A DNA stretch of 64,000 bases from sequence record PV763136.1, one strand, 5' to 3'. The notes beneath the pieces are model-generated. The model saw only the letters and a program-made list of their open reading frames with translations. It did not search any database and was not told the DNA's origin. Shown in pieces: positions 5,831 through 10,217 of this stretch (positions are counted from its first letter, which is position 1; each line of letters opens with the position of its first letter). Origin of the DNA: Escherichia phage vB_EcoM_YN3. A program made the position numbers and the translations under genes.

Positions 5831-5874
5831 TTTACTTTATTGATGGCCCTGGAGTCAAGGCCATCTAAAAATAA
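5831..5874. repeat. Conserved 44-bp intergenic element, copy 1 of 3 (TTTACTTTATTGATGGCCCTGGAGTCAAGGCCATCTAAAAATAA)
   Basis: Exact 44-mer also at 9552-9595 and 10174-10217; contains 7-bp inverted repeat GATGGCC/GGCCATC; each copy ends 3 nt before a minus-strand stop codon. Confidence 0.8.
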
Positions 5875-5877
5875 ACT

Positions 5878-6078
5878 TTACAGGCCTACAATCTCTTTAA
5901 TTCGTTTTACTGCTGCCTCAGCGCCTTGAGGGTAGAAATTATGATAACCAATCACGCGGGTAATACTAATTGCCGTTTGATGATCTTCATAATCGCCCTT
6001 GAAGATTTCTTGACCGTCAATCAGCACAGCAATTTTTTCTTCTTTTTTGAAGTTAATAACGCGGATATTGTTGCTCAT
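5878..6078 (-). CDS. Hypothetical protein (66 aa)
   Basis: ORF; AAAGGAGAAA RBS. Confidence 0.45.
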   Translation of the reverse strand: MSNNIRVINFKKEEKIAVLIDGQEIFKGDYEDHQTAISITRVIGYHNFYPQGAEAAVKRIKEIVGL

Positions 6079-6137
6079 TTTGTTTCTCCTTTTGGAACTT
6101 TGTCTGTGTGGTGGGGAGTGTCTCCCCGTTGATTGTT

Positions 6138-6165
6138 ATTATCCATATTCAGGACCGGATTGCAA
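6138..6165 (-). promoter_or_regulatory. Sigma70-like early promoter (TTGCAA-N16-GATAAT) followed by a 5-prime GC hairpin
   Basis: Hexamers on minus strand; hairpin GGGGAGACACTCCCC at 6113-6127. Confidence 0.5.
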
Positions 6166-6184
6166 CACCCCGGAAGAAAAATTT

Positions 6185-6219
6185 TTTGAAAAAAGTTAGG
6201 CCCCCAGGGATCGGGGGCC
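6185..6219 (-). terminator. Intrinsic terminator-like hairpin with U-tract (minus strand)
   Basis: GGCCCCCGATCCCTGGGGGCC followed on minus strand by TTTTTTCAAAAAATTTTT. Confidence 0.5.
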
Positions 6220-6223
6220 GTTA

Positions 6224-6343
6224 TCAGGTACGTACAGCGATAAAATACATCCCTACGCCTAACAATATTTCAAGGGCGATGATCTCCAGCCATACCATAA
6301 CACGGCGCGCCTTATCGGTGCGGGGCTTATCCTTGGGTGTCAT
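6224..6343 (-). CDS. Small membrane peptide (39 aa), below the ORF-track cut-off
   Basis: CAGGAGGAAAGGGGG RBS before ATG; hydrophobic core WLEIIALEILLGVGMYFIAV; hand translated. Confidence 0.35.
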   Translation of the reverse strand: MTPKDKPRTDKARRVMVWLEIIALEILLGVGMYFIAVRT

Positions 6344-6562
6344 CGTCTCCCCCTTTCCTCCTGTTAGTAGTGACGTGGTTTACAATGGTCCCCAGGAGTA
6401 CTATCGCCACGCACATTACGAGAAAAATTATCTCTGTCGTTGTTCGATCCATTGTTATAAAATTCCTTAAGATCAGGCCTGAAAATAAAGCTTTCGTTAT
6501 TGAATCCATCCCGCCAGGCGGCTGGCTTCAAATCTTCACTAAAGGGATTAATTAACGTGGTA

Positions 6563-6934
6563 TTATTTAAACGGTTGGCCCACATATTTTCTATTCCTCT
6601 CAAATAAGCGATCCGCCTCAGTTAAACAAATCTCATGGGCGTGATCTCTGGTTTTAGCTTCATCGAAAACCTGTTGTGCAAGGCTGCAACGCAGGGAGAC
6701 CGGAAGATCACTATAATAGGCGTTAACAAACGTTTGAGCGTCGTACAGGTCTGAAAATACTTTACCCTTTCTATTATTCCCCTTGTCAACAATTGCAAGG
6801 ATAACCAATACAATAGTTGCAACCGCTCCCAGGAAAATAGATATAATAAACCATAAAAAGGCGGATCTACCTATCTTGCCAGCGATCCAGGCGTTAAACA
6901 AGGCAACTAATAAGGCCAAAATAATAAATTCCAT
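6563..6934 (-). CDS. Membrane protein (123 aa, about 2 predicted TM helices)
   Basis: N-terminal hydrophobic segments MEFIILALLVALFNAWIAGK... and FLWFIISIFLGAVATIVLVILAIV. Confidence 0.5.
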   Translation of the reverse strand: MEFIILALLVALFNAWIAGKIGRSAFLWFIISIFLGAVATIVLVILAIVDKGNNRKGKVFSDLYDAQTFVNAYYSDLPVSLRCSLAQQVFDEAKTRDHAHEICLTEADRLFERNRKYVGQPFK

Positions 6935-6997
6935 TCTATGTACCCTCTTACAATTCTGATTAACAGTAAGGCGGCAAATATGCCGCCTGTTACCTGA

Positions 6998-7378
6998 TTA
7001 AAAATTATCGCCGTAAATCTTCCCGCTTTCTACCCATACCACCACGCGAGGCATACTATCCCACACGTCTTGTTTTAGATTGAGCGCGTGCAATTCTTCG
7101 GTGGTGCTCATACCAGGCACGGGCTGATTGTATACTGCAAAACGACCGCCTGCATAATCATAAGCCAGGGTTAAATCACACTGGATCATCTTTTTGATCA
7201 TGGCGTTCAGCATAGCGTTAGCCGCGTACTGATCTCGTTTTAATGGCAACTCTTTAATCAGTTTGCGATAGTTTTCGATATGGTCGCACACTGTTTCACG
7301 AGGAAGATCTTTCATATCTTCACGGAATGTAACCAGGTTAAACATAACGGTGTCAATAGCCTTGGTAGTGTTTTTCAT
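6998..7378 (-). CDS. Hypothetical protein (126 aa)
   Basis: ORF with promoter-hairpin cassette upstream. Confidence 0.5.
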   Translation of the reverse strand: MKNTTKAIDTVMFNLVTFREDMKDLPRETVCDHIENYRKLIKELPLKRDQYAANAMLNAMIKKMIQCDLTLAYDYAGGRFAVYNQPVPGMSTTEELHALNLKQDVWDSMPRVVVWVESGKIYGDNF

Positions 7379-7433
7379 GATGTTTTCCTCTTTGTTTTGT
7401 GTTGGGGCAAGACGTTTGCCCCCCTTGAGTTTT

Positions 7434-7461
7434 AATATAGCAGGTTTTTAGGTTATTGCAA
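7434..7461 (-). promoter_or_regulatory. Sigma70-like early promoter (TTGCAA-N16-TATATT) followed by a 5-prime GC hairpin
   Basis: Hairpin GGGGCAAACGTCTTGCCCC at 7404-7422, then AGAGGA RBS and ATG. Confidence 0.5.
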
Positions 7462-8428: not shown

Positions 8429-8647
8429 GGCGTTTACTCCTTCCTCTCTTTGATGTGGTTAGTATAGCTAACCTGTTGACGATGTCAATGATATTTTTAA
8501 CGCCATAAAACGGCCCTGGGCGATGTTTTCAGGTTAAAGGGGGGCGATTGCATAGGTGGGGGCCTTTTTGGCGCTTACAGGGCCAACCAGGGGCGCTATT
8601 CGTAGGATAGAAATAAAAAGCCCCGCACAATGGCGGGGCGTTGGTTG

Positions 8648-8845
8648 TTATTTGTTTTTATGGCGGTACCGTTCCGCCTGTCGTTCACGTTCCAAAAGTA
8701 GGCCAGGCAATTTACGATCATAATGGTTACGCCAGATCTTCCCAAACCTTTTTGGCTTATTCAGTTTATTGTTACGCTGTCGGCGTTCTGGCAACTCTTC
8801 GGAATCATGAGAGCGCTTTATAATCTTCTCAAAATTAACCTTCAT
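8648..8845 (-). CDS. Highly basic small protein (65 aa)
   Basis: Lys/Arg-rich; start overlaps upstream stop (ATGA). Confidence 0.4.
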   Translation of the reverse strand: MKVNFEKIIKRSHDSEELPERRQRNNKLNKPKRFGKIWRNHYDRKLPGLLLERERQAERYRHKNK

Positions 8846-9189
8846 ATATTCCCCCCCTTACTAACTTCAATATTTGCCTGAATAGCCCTGATACGGCGCT
8901 TTATAAATTCCTGGTCTGTGTGGTCGTATCCCCAAAAGTCTACAATTTTTGCGCCCCCCGCCTCCAGGCGGTATAGTGTTTCCTGCATTTTGTAAGCCGG
9001 GATCGGTCGCGGTGTTACTTGGTCACCTTCTTTATTTTTATACTTTATAATATAATCTTCGTTATCGTTGAATGTCCAAAATGGATATTCTGCAAGGGCG
9101 GTACTTCCTCTTTCCTTTTTATCCTGGATCTTGTTTACAATTAAAGCCGTAGCAATAGCGCCGATAATAAAACTGGCCCCGCTGATCAT
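8842..9189 (-). CDS. N-terminally membrane-anchored protein (115 aa)
   Basis: Hydrophobic N-terminus MISGASFIIGAIATALIV. Confidence 0.5.
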   Translation of the reverse strand: MISGASFIIGAIATALIVNKIQDKKERGSTALAEYPFWTFNDNEDYIIKYKNKEGDQVTPRPIPAYKMQETLYRLEAGGAKIVDFWGYDHTDQEFIKRRIRAIQANIEVSKGGNI

Positions 9190-9265
9190 GTGTACTTTCT
9201 CCTTTCATGGTGTTAATAAATTATCTTTATAGATGGCCCTGCAGCCAGGACCACCGAAAAAATAA

Positions 9266-9511
9266 CTATTTCACAATGCCTACAAAACAGATCCCGCCTT
9301 CACCTATGTAAGCAATATCGGTCACTTTGTAGTCGGTCAAGATCTGTTTATTCAGATCATTAATAAAGTCGGTCATCGCGTTGGTGTAGTTGTCTTCCAT
9401 GTCTAGGGAATAGTCCCAGGTGTAGACCTTTTTACGCCCAAAGCCTTTTACCATGATACGGGCGCTTTTGGTGTTGGTGGGCGCATAATATTTGGTGATT
9501 AGTGCTGCCAT
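9266..9511 (-). CDS. Hypothetical protein (81 aa)
   Basis: ORF; GAGGAG RBS. Confidence 0.45.
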   Translation of the reverse strand: MAALITKYYAPTNTKSARIMVKGFGRKKVYTWDYSLDMEDNYTNAMTDFINDLNKQILTDYKVTDIAYIGEGGICFVGIVK

Positions 9512-9551
9512 GGTTTTAACTCCTCATTAGTTCAGTGTTAACAGTGTAAAG

Positions 9552-9595
9552 TTTACTTTATTGATGGCCCTGGAGTCAAGGCCATCTAAAAATAA
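9552..9595. repeat. Conserved 44-bp intergenic element, copy 2 of 3
   Basis: Exact match to 5831-5874. Confidence 0.8.
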
Positions 9596-9597
9596 TC

Positions 9598-9939
9598 TTA
9601 CTCGTTTTCTTCCAGCTTTGCAAGCTCTTCTTTCACTTCTTCGAGCTCTGTCTGCAATTCTTGGTACTCTTCGTCGTCCTCAATATCCAGGCTGTCGATG
9701 TAGTCGCTAAATCCGCAGCGGTAAGCGATAGGATCTAACTCCTTGAGGATACGCGACGGAAGAAAAGAAATGTTTCCGATCATAATTTCGCCGTAGATCT
9801 CGTCTAACCATTCATCATAGTTTTCGTCGTACTTGTCCTCGTCGATTTCAAAGTTATCGATCTTGTTCTCAAGGTCTGCGATCTGTTTTTTCAGCGCGGC
9901 GATCTGCATAGCTTTTTCTGCGGCGGTCATAGTAGTCAT
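9598..9939 (-). CDS. Acidic coiled-coil protein (113 aa)
   Basis: Asp/Glu-rich with heptad-like N-terminal and C-terminal segments. Confidence 0.5.
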   Translation of the reverse strand: MTTMTAAEKAMQIAALKKQIADLENKIDNFEIDEDKYDENYDEWLDEIYGEIMIGNISFLPSRILKELDPIAYRCGFSDYIDSLDIEDDEEYQELQTELEEVKEELAKLEENE

Positions 9940-9990
9940 GGTGTTTTCTCCTTTTGTGTGTTCTGGGAAGTTTTCCCGTTTACGTGTTTA

Positions 9991-10018
9991 AGTATACCGA
10001 TTTGGGTTAGCTTGTCAA
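9991..10018 (-). promoter_or_regulatory. Sigma70-like early promoter (TTGACA-N16-TATACT) followed by a 5-prime hairpin
   Basis: Hairpin GGGAAAACTTCCC at 9965-9977; AAGGAG RBS. Confidence 0.55.
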
Positions 10019-10138
10019 TTAAAAATTTAAGAAAAATTTTGCAAAACTGTTGGCGCTACTCATTAACATTTGCGCCAGGATGTAACCGACAACGCAAACG
10101 ATAATAGTTACCTTTGTGTATTGGCGTGTAGTGCTCAT
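10019..10138 (-). CDS. Small hydrophobic peptide (39 aa), below the ORF-track cut-off
   Basis: AAGGGGG RBS before ATG; TM-like core VTIIVCVVGYILAQ; hand translated. Confidence 0.3.
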   Translation of the reverse strand: MSTTRQYTKVTIIVCVVGYILAQMLMSSANSFAKFFLNF

Positions 10139-10173
10139 CTTAAAGCCCCCTTTTTTCGCTTAGTTGAGACTAG

Positions 10174-10217
10174 TTTACTTTATTGATGGCCCTGGAGTCA
10201 AGGCCATCTAAAAATAA
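10174..10217. repeat. Conserved 44-bp intergenic element, copy 3 of 3
   Basis: Exact match to 5831-5874. Confidence 0.8.

What the first reader, a model, noticed from the sequence alone, without database searches (positions are those of the whole stretch)
5831..10217. Perfectly conserved 44-bp intergenic element in three copies, each ending 3 nt before a stop codon
TTTACTTTATTGATGGCCCTGGAGTCAAGGCCATCTAAAAATAA occurs exactly at 5831-5874, 9552-9595 and 10174-10217, with a related variant near 9222-9262. It contains a 7-bp inverted repeat and, on the minus strand, a TTGACT hexamer inside the loop. Exact identity over 44 bp in intergenic DNA implies strong selection or recent duplication by recombination.
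Basis: seen in the sequence. Interest (0 to 1): 0.5.

Follow-up and report, generated by a model that had tools for sequence, protein, structure and literature searches.

The report
T7-like RNase III hairpins in phage
Four copies of a strongly conserved RNA hairpin lie between early genes of an rV5-like E. coli phage. They closely resemble the signals that phage T7 uses to make the host enzyme RNase III cut long early messages into stable pieces, so this is a known kind of element that has not been described in this phage group.

Summary
The 44-bp sequence occurs exactly three times (5831-5874, 9552-9595, 10174-10217), and a diverged fourth copy lies at 9219-9267.

The window is an rV5-like Vequintavirus whose early genes run on the minus strand. 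On that sense strand each copy folds into a two-tier hairpin: a 10-11 bp A/U lower stem, a 2x3 internal loop, a 10-bp G/C upper stem and a tetraloop (-21 to -24 kcal/mol, z -4.5 to -5.5). The antisense strand folds poorly.

Across about 20 relatives, 98% of stem cells pair and four pairs change on both sides. The non-loop part of the three exact copies is about 10 times less diverse than the flanking genes, while loop positions 3-4 vary freely.

A covariance model built only from the five T7 early RNase III sites returns these four copies as its top four hits in the 64-kb window. The reverse model picks T7 sites R1, R0.3 and R1.1.

Best reading (0.6): intercistronic RNase III-type processing and stabilising signals. 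The loop TTGACT promoter is weak, and the fourth copy lacks it. Natural isolates carry deletions whose junctions lie inside the copies, as with PeSL cassettes. It is a new member of a known kind; cleavage is untested.

The parts
5829..5877 (-). Copy A of the two-tier hairpin (the exact 44-mer is 5831-5874). It lies between the 66-aa gene 5878-6078 and the 99-aa gene 5487-5786. Upper stem 5842-5865; 3' internal loop 5839-5841, the predicted cleavage zone (inferred).
   Evidence: -23.6 kcal/mol, z -5.5; 81.7 bits; 29.1 bits with the T7-derived model, top hit.
9550..9598 (-). Copy B (the exact 44-mer is 9552-9595). It lies between the 113-aa gene 9598-9939 and the 81-aa gene 9266-9511. Upper stem 9563-9586; 3' internal loop 9560-9562 (predicted cleavage zone, inferred).
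   Evidence: -22.3 kcal/mol, z -5.5; 80.5 bits; 23.1 bits.
10172..10220 (-). Copy C (the exact 44-mer is 10174-10217). It lies between the 134-aa gene 10220-10624 and the 39-aa gene 10019-10138. Upper stem 10185-10208; 3' internal loop 10182-10184 (predicted cleavage zone, inferred).
   Evidence: -20.7 kcal/mol, z -4.5; 78.1 bits; 22.2 bits.
9219..9267 (-). Diverged fourth copy V. It has the same two-tier hairpin (GGUGGUCCUG-GCUG-CAGGGCCAUC on an A/U lower stem) but no TTGAC. It lies between the 81-aa gene 9266-9511 and the 115-aa gene 8842-9189.
   Evidence: -22.4 kcal/mol, z -4.5; 72.6 bits; 27.1 bits, second-best hit of the T7-derived model.
10674..10701 (-). Sigma-70-type promoter (TTGACA-16-TAAACT), followed by a 5'-UTR hairpin at 10645-10663. 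It would drive the transcript that carries the 134-aa gene and copy C.
   Evidence: sequence. Its function is inferred.
9991..10018 (-). Sigma-70-type promoter (TTGACA-16-TATACT) with a 5'-UTR hairpin. It would drive the 113-aa gene, copy B, the 81-aa gene and copy V.
   Evidence: (family D5). Its function is inferred.
6138..6165 (-). Promoter-like TTGCAA-16-GATAAT, followed by the hairpin GGGGAGACACTCCCC. It lies upstream of the 66-aa gene that precedes copy A.
   Evidence: Read from the sequence. It is not among the sites listed. Inferred.
5384..5451 (-). A possible further T7-like hairpin (AAAGGCUAUGCGGUUGCAUGGCCUUUAUUAUUUU). It is the fifth hit of the T7-derived model and also matches the terminator-like pattern. 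Membership in the family is uncertain.
   Evidence: 17.9 bits, E 0.21; terminator-like site 5430-5401.

Best explanation
The 44-bp repeat is the DNA of a two-tier RNA hairpin carried on the sense (minus-strand) early polycistronic mRNAs of an rV5-like Vequintavirus. It begins at the stop codon of one gene and ends 33-44 nt before the next start codon.

I propose that it is an RNase III-type processing signal of the kind phage T7 uses.

- Geometry: two helices of about 10 bp stack into roughly two helical turns around a small asymmetric internal loop.
- Cleavage: host RNase III binds and cuts once in or next to the 3' side of that loop (near 5839-5841, 9560-9562, 10182-10184 and 9229-9231).
- Upstream cistron: it is left with a protective 3' stem-loop.
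- Downstream cistrons: they are released as a separate mRNA, so the two can differ in stability and translation.

Shown here:
- the structure and its strand specificity;
- covariation in the stems;
- strong purifying selection on stems but not on loop positions 3-4;
- intercistronic placement downstream of strong early promoters;
- reciprocal covariance-model similarity to bona fide T7 RNase III sites.

Inferred: cleavage itself, its position and its effect on expression.

Secondary property, shown: because the copies are near-identical direct repeats, they serve as crossover points that delete the gene cassettes between them. PeSL cassettes of T4-type phages behave the same way.

Possible extra function, not shown: the three exact copies may also act as weak internal sigma-70 promoters (TTGACT-18-TAAAYT).
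For: 1. Sense-strand fold: minus-strand RNA folds at -20.7 to -23.6 kcal/mol with z -4.5 to -5.5. Plus-strand RNA gives -8 to -16.5 kcal/mol with z -0.9 to -2.3. The same stretches fold weakly as ssDNA.
2. Pairing across copies: on 35 distinct copies, 98% of stem cells pair, against 35-57% in the slid controls. Four lower-stem pairs change on both sides. Upper-stem changes are all G.U-compatible on the sense strand only. The U.G pair at columns 13-49 never varies.
3. Diversity: 0.007-0.009 in the non-loop part of the three exact copies, 0.049 in the fourth copy, 0.11-0.31 in the loop, 0.13 in the spacer and about 0.08 in the flanking CDS.
4. T7 model on the window: model R2, built only from the five T7 early RNase III sites, was run on the window with filters off. 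The four copies are its top four hits, all on the minus strand, at 22-29 bits and E 6e-4 to 0.02. The best score in a 46-kb control from PVP-SE1 is 12.1 bits.
5. Element model on T7: model R1, built from the element, was run on the T7 early region. Its top three hits are the intergenic hairpins before genes 1, 0.3 and 1.1, which are sites R1, R0.3 and R1.1.
6. Geometry from the literature: E. coli RNase III substrates typically span two helical turns. The distal box lies about 11 bp from the cut. Internal loops restrict cleavage to one bond and leave a protective 3' hairpin. The tetraloop's position and sequence do not set the cut site (PMC1540722, PMC3867540). The T7 early precursor is cut at five such sites (PMC4858673).
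7. Shared base pairs: the U.G and U-A pairs under the loop-closing pair are the same as in T7 R1.1.
8. Setting: genes and strong promoters are on the minus strand, and each element lies inside an operon.
Against: - No transcript or cleavage data exist for any rV5-like phage in the searched literature.
- The E-values of the cross-family hits are modest, and the calibration of these models is rough.
- The T7 site identities rest partly on my own knowledge of Dunn and Studier's map.
- The internal loop (2x3) is smaller than in T7 R1.1 (4x5), unless three terminal U-A pairs open.
- The first two loop bases (A, C) never vary among the aligned exact-type copies. RNase III recognition does not explain this, but a -35 TTGAC does.
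- I could not check the proximal- and distal-box registers, and hence antideterminants, because the figures are not held.
- The element is absent from the sister genus Seunavirus, so it is not a deep feature of the subfamily.
Confidence: 0.6

Rival explanations
1. PeSL-type composite cassette whose main job is transcription. The exact copies are internal sigma-70 early promoters (TTGACT or TTGACA, 18-nt spacer, TAAACT or TAAATT, AT-rich upstream). The hairpin attenuates read-through from upstream.
For: - TTGAC is invariant in the aligned exact-type copies, while the sixth base and the next one vary freely. Several genomes have the perfect TTGACA.
- T, A and T of the -10 are present, and the phage's own promoter at 10701 uses TAAACT.
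- The layout stop codon, AT-rich tract, stem-loop overlapping the -35, then SD and ATG is one of the five PeSL subclasses (PMC2839356).
- Recombination between copies happens as in PeSLs.
Against: - The match is only 9 of 12 with a suboptimal 18-nt spacer. Matches of that quality are common by chance (77 found against 43 expected).
- Neighbouring real-looking promoters score 11-12 of 12.
- The fourth copy keeps the full hairpin under selection but has CTGGCT or similar instead of TTGACT.
- One relative has TTGATAAC in copy C.
- Of TTGAC, TTG is already explained by stem pairing.
- A promoter does not need the spacer to be complementary to upstream DNA with G.U pairs on one strand only.
Confidence: 0.13
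2. An mRNA hairpin that works without RNase III. It could be a 3' barrier against exonucleases after other processing, or the operator of a phage-encoded RNA-binding protein that co-regulates the downstream genes.
For: - The structure is specific to the sense strand, covaries and is under selection.
- The invariant loop bases A and C and the invariant U.G pair could be protein contacts.
- Three unrelated downstream genes share an identical element.
Against: - It does not explain the specific resemblance to T7 RNase III sites in both directions.
- The hairpin lies 33-44 nt from the start codons and not over the SD, which is unusual for a translational operator.
Confidence: 0.12
3. Intrinsic (Rho-independent) terminator or attenuator between cistrons.
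For: - The GenBank record of phage Murica annotates copy A and the fourth copy as 45-nt 'terminator' features.
- The upper stem is GC-rich.
- PeSL stem-loops reduced lacZ read-through.
Against: - No U-tract follows the stem. The upper stem is followed by AAUAAAGUAAA and the whole hairpin by CUUUACAC, CUAGUCUC or UUUAAACC.
- The consensus terminator scan did not report any copy, although it found the true terminator-like sites at 6199-6219 and 8620-8639.
- The genes downstream have no strong promoter of their own, so full termination would silence them.
Confidence: 0.06
4. DNA-level element: a palindromic operator for a dimeric DNA-binding protein, a cruciform, or a structure-specific recombination site.
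For: - It is an imperfect palindrome of about 44 bp.
- Deletion junctions fall inside the copies, once within a 6-nt stretch (ATAAAG) next to the internal loop.
- Copies B and C share rare substitutions in phiWec193, which suggests exchange between them.
Against: - Substitutions preserve RNA pairing through G.U on one strand, not the symmetry of half-sites. All three differences in the 5' arm of the fourth copy are of this kind (about 0.03 by chance). The 9-53 pair runs U-A, U.G, C-G.
- The ssDNA folds are weak.
- The junctions are consistent with ordinary homology-driven or slippage deletion between direct repeats.
Confidence: 0.05
5. Selfish miniature mobile element (MITE or REP-like) that spread within the genome.
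For: It is short, palindromic, intergenic and repeated, and unrelated genes flank it.
Against: - It occupies the same four positions in the relatives examined, with at most three matches of the exact type per record among about 120 records.
- It has no target-site duplications.
- It is absent from 5,426 complete E. coli genomes.
- Metagenome scans found it only in Vequintavirus-sized contigs.
Confidence: 0.02

Closest known systems
Phage T7 early RNase III processing signals (R0.3, R0.5, R1, R1.1, R1.3)
   Same: - Both are intercistronic hairpins on the sense strand of a host-polymerase early polycistronic transcript of a coliphage.
- Both have a 9-10 bp upper stem with G.U pairs, usually capped by a tetraloop.
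- Both have an asymmetric internal loop whose 3' side reads (A/U)AU, and a lower stem of 8-11 bp.
- Both have U.G and U-A pairs under the loop-closing pair and a GGCC core.
- Covariance models of each family detect the other.
   Different: - The phage lineage is unrelated (Vequintavirinae myovirus versus Autographiviridae).
- The lower stem is almost pure A/U, and the internal loop is 2x3 rather than 4x5.
- Three copies are identical.
- Cleavage has not been shown.
PeSL (promoter-early stem-loop) cassettes of T4-type phages RB49 and phi1 (Arbiol et al. 2010; Comeau et al. 2014)
   Same: - Both are repeated intergenic cassettes in a plastic early region full of small genes of unknown function.
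- Both begin with the upstream stop codon in an AT-rich tract.
- Both have a stem-loop with G.T pairs that can overlap a -35 box, followed by SD and ATG.
- In both, recombination between copies deletes or exchanges the intervening genes.
   Different: - PeSL promoters match the sigma-70 consensus and are very strong. Here the match is 9 of 12, and one copy has no -35.
- Here the conserved, selected part is the hairpin.
- Mini-circles were not tested.
Promoter plus 5'-UTR hairpin cassettes of the same phage (for example 8113-8178 and 9953-10018) and of Salmonella phage PVP-SE1
   Same: Both are repeated regulatory modules between early genes on the same strand.
   Different: - Those modules have near-consensus TTGACA-16/17-TATAAT, with the hairpin downstream of the -10 at the 5' end of the transcript.
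- Their copies are only about 74% alike.
- The element studied here has no such promoter, and its hairpin is internal to the transcript.
Intrinsic terminators and REP-type 3' stabiliser hairpins of E. coli
   Same: All are GC-rich hairpins just after a stop codon that can protect the upstream mRNA from 3' exonucleases.
   Different: The element has no U-tract, no sequence similarity to REP, and is absent from E. coli genomes.

Membership tests
E. coli RNase III processing signal, T7 type | About two helical turns (roughly 20-22 bp) of double-helical RNA, possibly as two coaxial helices | tested here: met
   A 10-bp upper stem plus a 10-11-bp lower stem in all four copies. The criterion comes from PMC1540722 and PMC3867540.
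E. coli RNase III processing signal, T7 type | An internal loop or bulge near the centre that limits cleavage to one strand and leaves a 3' stem-loop | tested here: met
   A conserved asymmetric 2x3 internal loop (UA/AAU in the exact copies, UC/UAU in the fourth copy) lies 10 bp below the tetraloop.
E. coli RNase III processing signal, T7 type | Lies on the transcribed strand within a polycistronic mRNA, between cistrons | tested here: met
   All flanking ORFs and strong promoters are on the minus strand. The fold is specific to the minus strand. Transcription itself was not measured.
E. coli RNase III processing signal, T7 type | Sequence and structure similarity to experimentally defined sites | tested here: met
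   The T7-site model R2 gives the four copies as its top four hits at 22-29 bits, against a control maximum of 12.1 bits. The reverse model R1 gives T7 R1, R0.3 and R1.1 as its top three hits.
E. coli RNase III processing signal, T7 type | Favourable distal and proximal boxes, with no antideterminant base pairs | tested here: inconclusive
   The U.G/U-A step under the closing pair equals that of T7 R1.1 and resembles the 'canonical UA/UG' distal box. The exact box register could not be verified because the figures are not held. The base of the upper stem starts with a G-C pair.
E. coli RNase III processing signal, T7 type | Cleavage by RNase III in vitro, or rnc-dependent ends in vivo | not testable with these tools
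   No transcript data for rV5-like phages were found.
PeSL cassette (T4-type phages) | Sigma-70 promoter identical or nearly identical to the consensus | tested here: not met
   TTGACT-18-TAAACT or TAAATT, 9 of 12. The fourth copy has no -35. Some relatives do have TTGACA.
PeSL cassette (T4-type phages) | Upstream stop codon in an AT-rich tract, a stable stem-loop within or next to the promoter, then SD and ATG | tested here: met
   The stop codon is 2-3 nt from TTATTTTTA. The stem-loop overlaps the -35-like hexamer. SD and ATG follow 33-44 nt downstream.
PeSL cassette (T4-type phages) | Recombination between copies produces indels of the intervening small genes | tested here: met
   ECP32 and an IMG/VR contig have a fused B/C copy and lack 622 bp. 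241Ecol014PP has a hybrid of copy B and the fourth copy and lacks the 81-aa gene.
Intrinsic terminator | GC-rich hairpin immediately followed by a U-tract | tested here: not met
   The tails are AAUAAAGUAAA after the upper stem, or CUUUACAC, CUAGUCUC or UUUAAACC after the whole hairpin. The terminator scan does not report them.
MITE or REP-like mobile repeat | Variable insertion sites, target-site duplications, presence in host genomes | tested here: not met
   The positions are fixed in all relatives examined, with at most three matches per record among about 120 records. There is no match in 5,426 E. coli genomes.

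The most novel reading that the evidence does not exclude
The hairpins are not only RNA signals. They could also be dedicated, structure-specific borders of exchangeable gene cassettes, folded and strand-specific like integron attC sites or PeSL mini-circle junctions. The phage recombination machinery would excise or swap the genes between them, making the early region a cassette array whose borders double as mRNA processing sites.
Probability: 0.07. Interest if true: 0.65.

Novelty: new member of a known kind. Interest (0 to 1): 0.4.

Why it matters
rV5-like phages are widely isolated and are used in E. coli O157 biocontrol and therapy sets, yet their early region is annotated almost entirely as 'hypothetical'. 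The rV5 paper's tables list only consensus promoters and terminators.

- Annotation: recognising four conserved RNase III-type signals gives testable transcript boundaries and explains a striking exact repeat.
- Host dependence: it suggests that a myovirus unrelated to T7 relies on the same host enzyme for early mRNA maturation, whether through convergence or transfer.
- Genome stability: it flags the repeats as predictable deletion points when these genomes are engineered or evolve.
- Method: a five-sequence T7 model found the sites cleanly, so RNase III signals could be searched for systematically in other coliphages.

Tried and rejected
- Rfam scan of 5000-11500 at E up to 5: only chance hits, none on the elements apart from a spurious snoZ194 overlap.
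- IMG/VR pattern scan: 18 loci, of which only two contigs are Vequintavirus and the rest are chance.
- Metagenome scan: only contigs of about 137 kb that look like Vequintavirus.
- E. coli genomes: no match.
- tblastn of the 81-aa and 207-aa neighbouring proteins, to find syntenic early regions in sister genera: the distant hits are in unrelated phage groups, so there is no usable synteny.
- PVP-SE1 early region: no homologue of the element with model R1. It has only its own promoter-hairpin cassettes.
- rV5 paper, supplementary table S4: the element is not among the 33 promoters or 20 terminators.
- Literature searches for Vequintavirus transcriptomes, stem-loops or RNase III: nothing relevant.
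- Confirming the R1.1 sequence label from papers: the sequence is present but unlabelled.
- rV5_ev146, which has only one copy: its deletions (window 2884-8699 and 10127-10631) do not end in the elements, so it is not evidence for element-mediated recombination.
- Paralogy of flanking genes as the cause of the repeat: rejected, because the proteins are unrelated.
- A fuzzy-regex copy finder and a first diversity calculation had errors (missed copies; wrong loop index). I redid both.

Full report
**Observation.** The 44-mer occurs with no mismatch at 5831-5874, 9552-9595 and 10174-10217. There is no other match at up to 3 mismatches and none in 100 shuffles. Copies B and C are identical over 51 nt, and a fourth copy, 71% identical, lies at 9219-9269. 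The gap to the upstream stop codon is 3 nt for copy A and 2 nt for copies B and C.

**Context.** The window is an rV5-like Vequintavirus. Its closest relative is Escherichia phage FV3 at 96% identity, and 123 phage records match the region.
- All credible ORFs between 4.5 and 11.5 kb are on the minus strand.
- So are a dense set of near-consensus sigma-70 promoters. Several are followed by a 5'-UTR hairpin.
- Each element therefore lies inside an early operon. It begins at the stop codon of one gene and ends 33-44 nt before the next ATG.
- The layouts are: P10701, 134-aa gene, copy C, 39-aa gene; P10018, 113-aa gene, copy B, 81-aa gene, fourth copy V, 115-aa gene; and the promoter-like site at 6138-6165, 66-aa gene, copy A, 99-aa gene.
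- The flanking proteins are unrelated to one another, so the repeat is not a by-product of gene duplication.

**Structure.**
- On the minus-strand RNA every copy folds into the same two-tier hairpin: a lower A/U stem of 10-11 bp, a 2x3 internal loop, a 10-bp upper stem (GAUGGCCUUG/CAGGGCCAUC, with one U.G pair) and the tetraloop ACUC.
- Free energies are -20.7 to -23.6 kcal/mol, with z-scores of -4.5 to -5.5. The plus-strand RNA reaches only -8 to -16.5 kcal/mol, with z-scores of -0.9 to -2.3. The ssDNA folds are weak.
- I collected copies from 16 GenBank relatives and several IMG/VR and metagenome contigs and aligned 35 distinct 60-nt versions.
- With the structure imposed, 98% of cells pair, against 35-57% when the partners are slid. 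Four lower-stem pairs change on both sides; for example, 12-50 is A-U or U-A, and 9-53 is U-A, U.G or C-G.
- The four variable upper-stem pairs change on one side only, through G.U, which works only on the sense strand. The U.G pair at 13-49 never varies.
- The fourth copy differs from the exact copies at three positions of the 5' arm. All three are among the four of ten positions where a transition keeps RNA pairing, which would happen about 3% of the time by chance.

**Selection and distribution.**
- Nucleotide diversity among about 15-18 distinct orthologous sequences is 0.007-0.009 for the non-loop part of the three exact copies and 0.049 for the fourth copy.
- It is 0.11-0.31 in the loop, 0.13 in the spacer to the ATG, and about 0.08 in the flanking coding DNA. 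Variation is concentrated at loop positions 3 and 4.
- About 120 phage records carry the element, nearly all with three matches of the exact type.
- A covariance model of the element (R1) finds only the four copies in the 64-kb window. They score 72-82 bits on the minus strand and 33-41 on the plus strand.
- The element is absent from 5,426 complete E. coli genomes and from Rfam. It is also absent from the early region of the sister-genus phage PVP-SE1. Metagenome hits are all Vequintavirus-sized contigs.
- The rV5 genome paper does not list it among its promoters or terminators. The Murica GenBank record labels copy A and the fourth copy as 'terminator'.

**Comparison with T7.** The geometry matches what is published for E. 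coli RNase III substrates.
- Such substrates have about two helical turns, with a distal box about 11 bp from the cut.
- Internal loops confine cleavage to one bond and leave a protective 3' hairpin. The tetraloop does not influence the cut site (PMC1540722, PMC3867540).
- The T7 early precursor of about 7 kb is cut at five such intercistronic sites (PMC4858673).

I tested the resemblance in both directions.
- Model R1, run with filters off on T7 positions 800-8000, gives as its three best hits the intergenic hairpins just before genes 1, 0.3 and 1.1. By the standard T7 map these are sites R1, R0.3 and R1.1. That identification rests on my own knowledge of Dunn and Studier 1983. These hits are individually weak (E 2.5-6) but align over the full length of the model.
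- Model R2 was built only from the five T7 early sites and run with filters off on the whole window. It returns the four copies as its four best hits, all on the minus strand, at 22-29 bits and E 6e-4 to 0.02.
- The best R2 score in 46 kb of PVP-SE1 is 12.1 bits.
- T7 R1.1 and the element share a 10-bp upper stem with a tetraloop. Both have U.G and U-A pairs under the closing pair, and an (A/U)AU 3' internal loop.

**Promoter reading.** The case for a promoter:
- TTGAC is invariant in the aligned exact-type copies, while the next two bases vary.
- Some genomes have TTGACA.
- The -10-like TAAACT is also used by the phage's promoter at 10701.

The case against it:
- The match is only 9 of 12 with an 18-nt spacer, a quality common by chance.
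- TTG is already fixed by stem pairing.
- The fourth copy keeps the hairpin without any -35.
- One relative has TTGATAAC.

I treat weak internal promoter activity as possible but secondary. In architecture the element fits one PeSL subclass, in which the stem-loop overlaps the -35 (PMC2839356). It fails the PeSL criterion of a consensus promoter.

**Recombination.**
- ECP32 and one IMG/VR contig carry a single fused B/C copy and lack the 622 bp between copies B and C.
- 241Ecol014PP has a hybrid made of copy B's 5' part joined to the fourth copy's 3' flank. The crossover lies within ATAAAG, and the 81-aa gene is missing.
- In phiWec193, copies B and C share a rare U-to-C change that copy A lacks. 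This suggests gene conversion.
- The rV5_ev146 deletions do not end in the elements.

**Mechanism proposed.** Host RNA polymerase transcribes each early operon from its strong promoter. The hairpin forms once the terminating ribosome has cleared the stop codon at its base. RNase III then binds the stacked helices, about 22 bp in all, and cuts on the 3' side of the internal loop. The first cistron is left capped by a 5'-UTR hairpin and a 3' stem-loop, and the distal cistrons become a separate mRNA. The structure, its strand specificity, the selection on it, its placement and its likeness to T7 sites are shown here. Cleavage and its consequences are inferred.

**Verdict.** The finding is a real, strongly selected RNA element. 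It is most likely a new member of the known class of phage RNase III processing signals, with PeSL-like behaviour as a recombination substrate. It is not a new kind of system, and I score interest at 0.4.

Noticed in passing
window 5384-5451 (-): Another hairpin, AAAGGCUAUGCGGUUGCAUGGCCUUUAUUAUUUU, has a 3' half that matches T7 RNase III sites at 13 of 14 positions (UGGCCUUUAUGAUU). It is the fifth hit of the T7-derived model (17.9 bits, E 0.21) and also fits the terminator-like pattern. It could be a fifth processing site or a plain terminator.
   Followed up: partly
window 8113-8178, 9953-10018, 10645-10701, 7404-7461 (-): Repeated cassettes made of a near-consensus promoter (TTGACA-16/17-TATAAT) followed by a GC-rich 5'-UTR hairpin (GGCGGGAAAACTTCCCGCC type) and then the SD. 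These resemble classical PeSLs more closely than the 44-mer does. PVP-SE1 has analogous cassettes.
   Followed up: partly
window 12148-12351; L042 26985-27193: Three tandem units of about 65 nt carry GAAAACGAAAAACAGATCGAGTAC-like cores in an ORF-poor stretch. PVP-SE1 has a similar 67-nt triple repeat containing GATCGAGAAC or GATCGAGTAC. A repeat shared across genera in a non-coding region is a candidate replication origin or iteron array.
   Followed up: no
window 61799-62461: Four copies of a 60-nt unit (62-80% identity), three of them at 132-nt spacing. This is probably a repeated protein domain in a large gene.
   Followed up: no
window 8648-8845 (-): This 65-aa ORF is annotated in the relatives Murica and 241Ecol014PP as 'T7 gp1.1-like'. 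In T7, gene 1.1 lies directly downstream of RNase III site R1.1, so there is a possible link to T7-type early-region modules.
   Followed up: no
GenBank records MG0656xx ('Campylobacter phage A142, C12' and others): Seventeen records labelled as Campylobacter jejuni phages are 93-95% identical to this E. coli Vequintavirus region. The host label looks doubtful.
   Followed up: no
L002 (rV5_ev146) relative to window 2884-8699 and 10127-10631: This phage lacks 5.8 kb and 0.5 kb of the early region. The junctions lie outside the elements, and the second joins the 39-aa gene to the ribosome-binding region of the 134-aa gene. Much of this early region is therefore dispensable.
   Followed up: partly
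window 5474, versus L001 (EdH4) 1980-2322: Many relatives carry an extra gene of about 350 bp (351-nt CDS) at this intergenic point that the window lacks. This is another indel hotspot in the same region.
   Followed up: no
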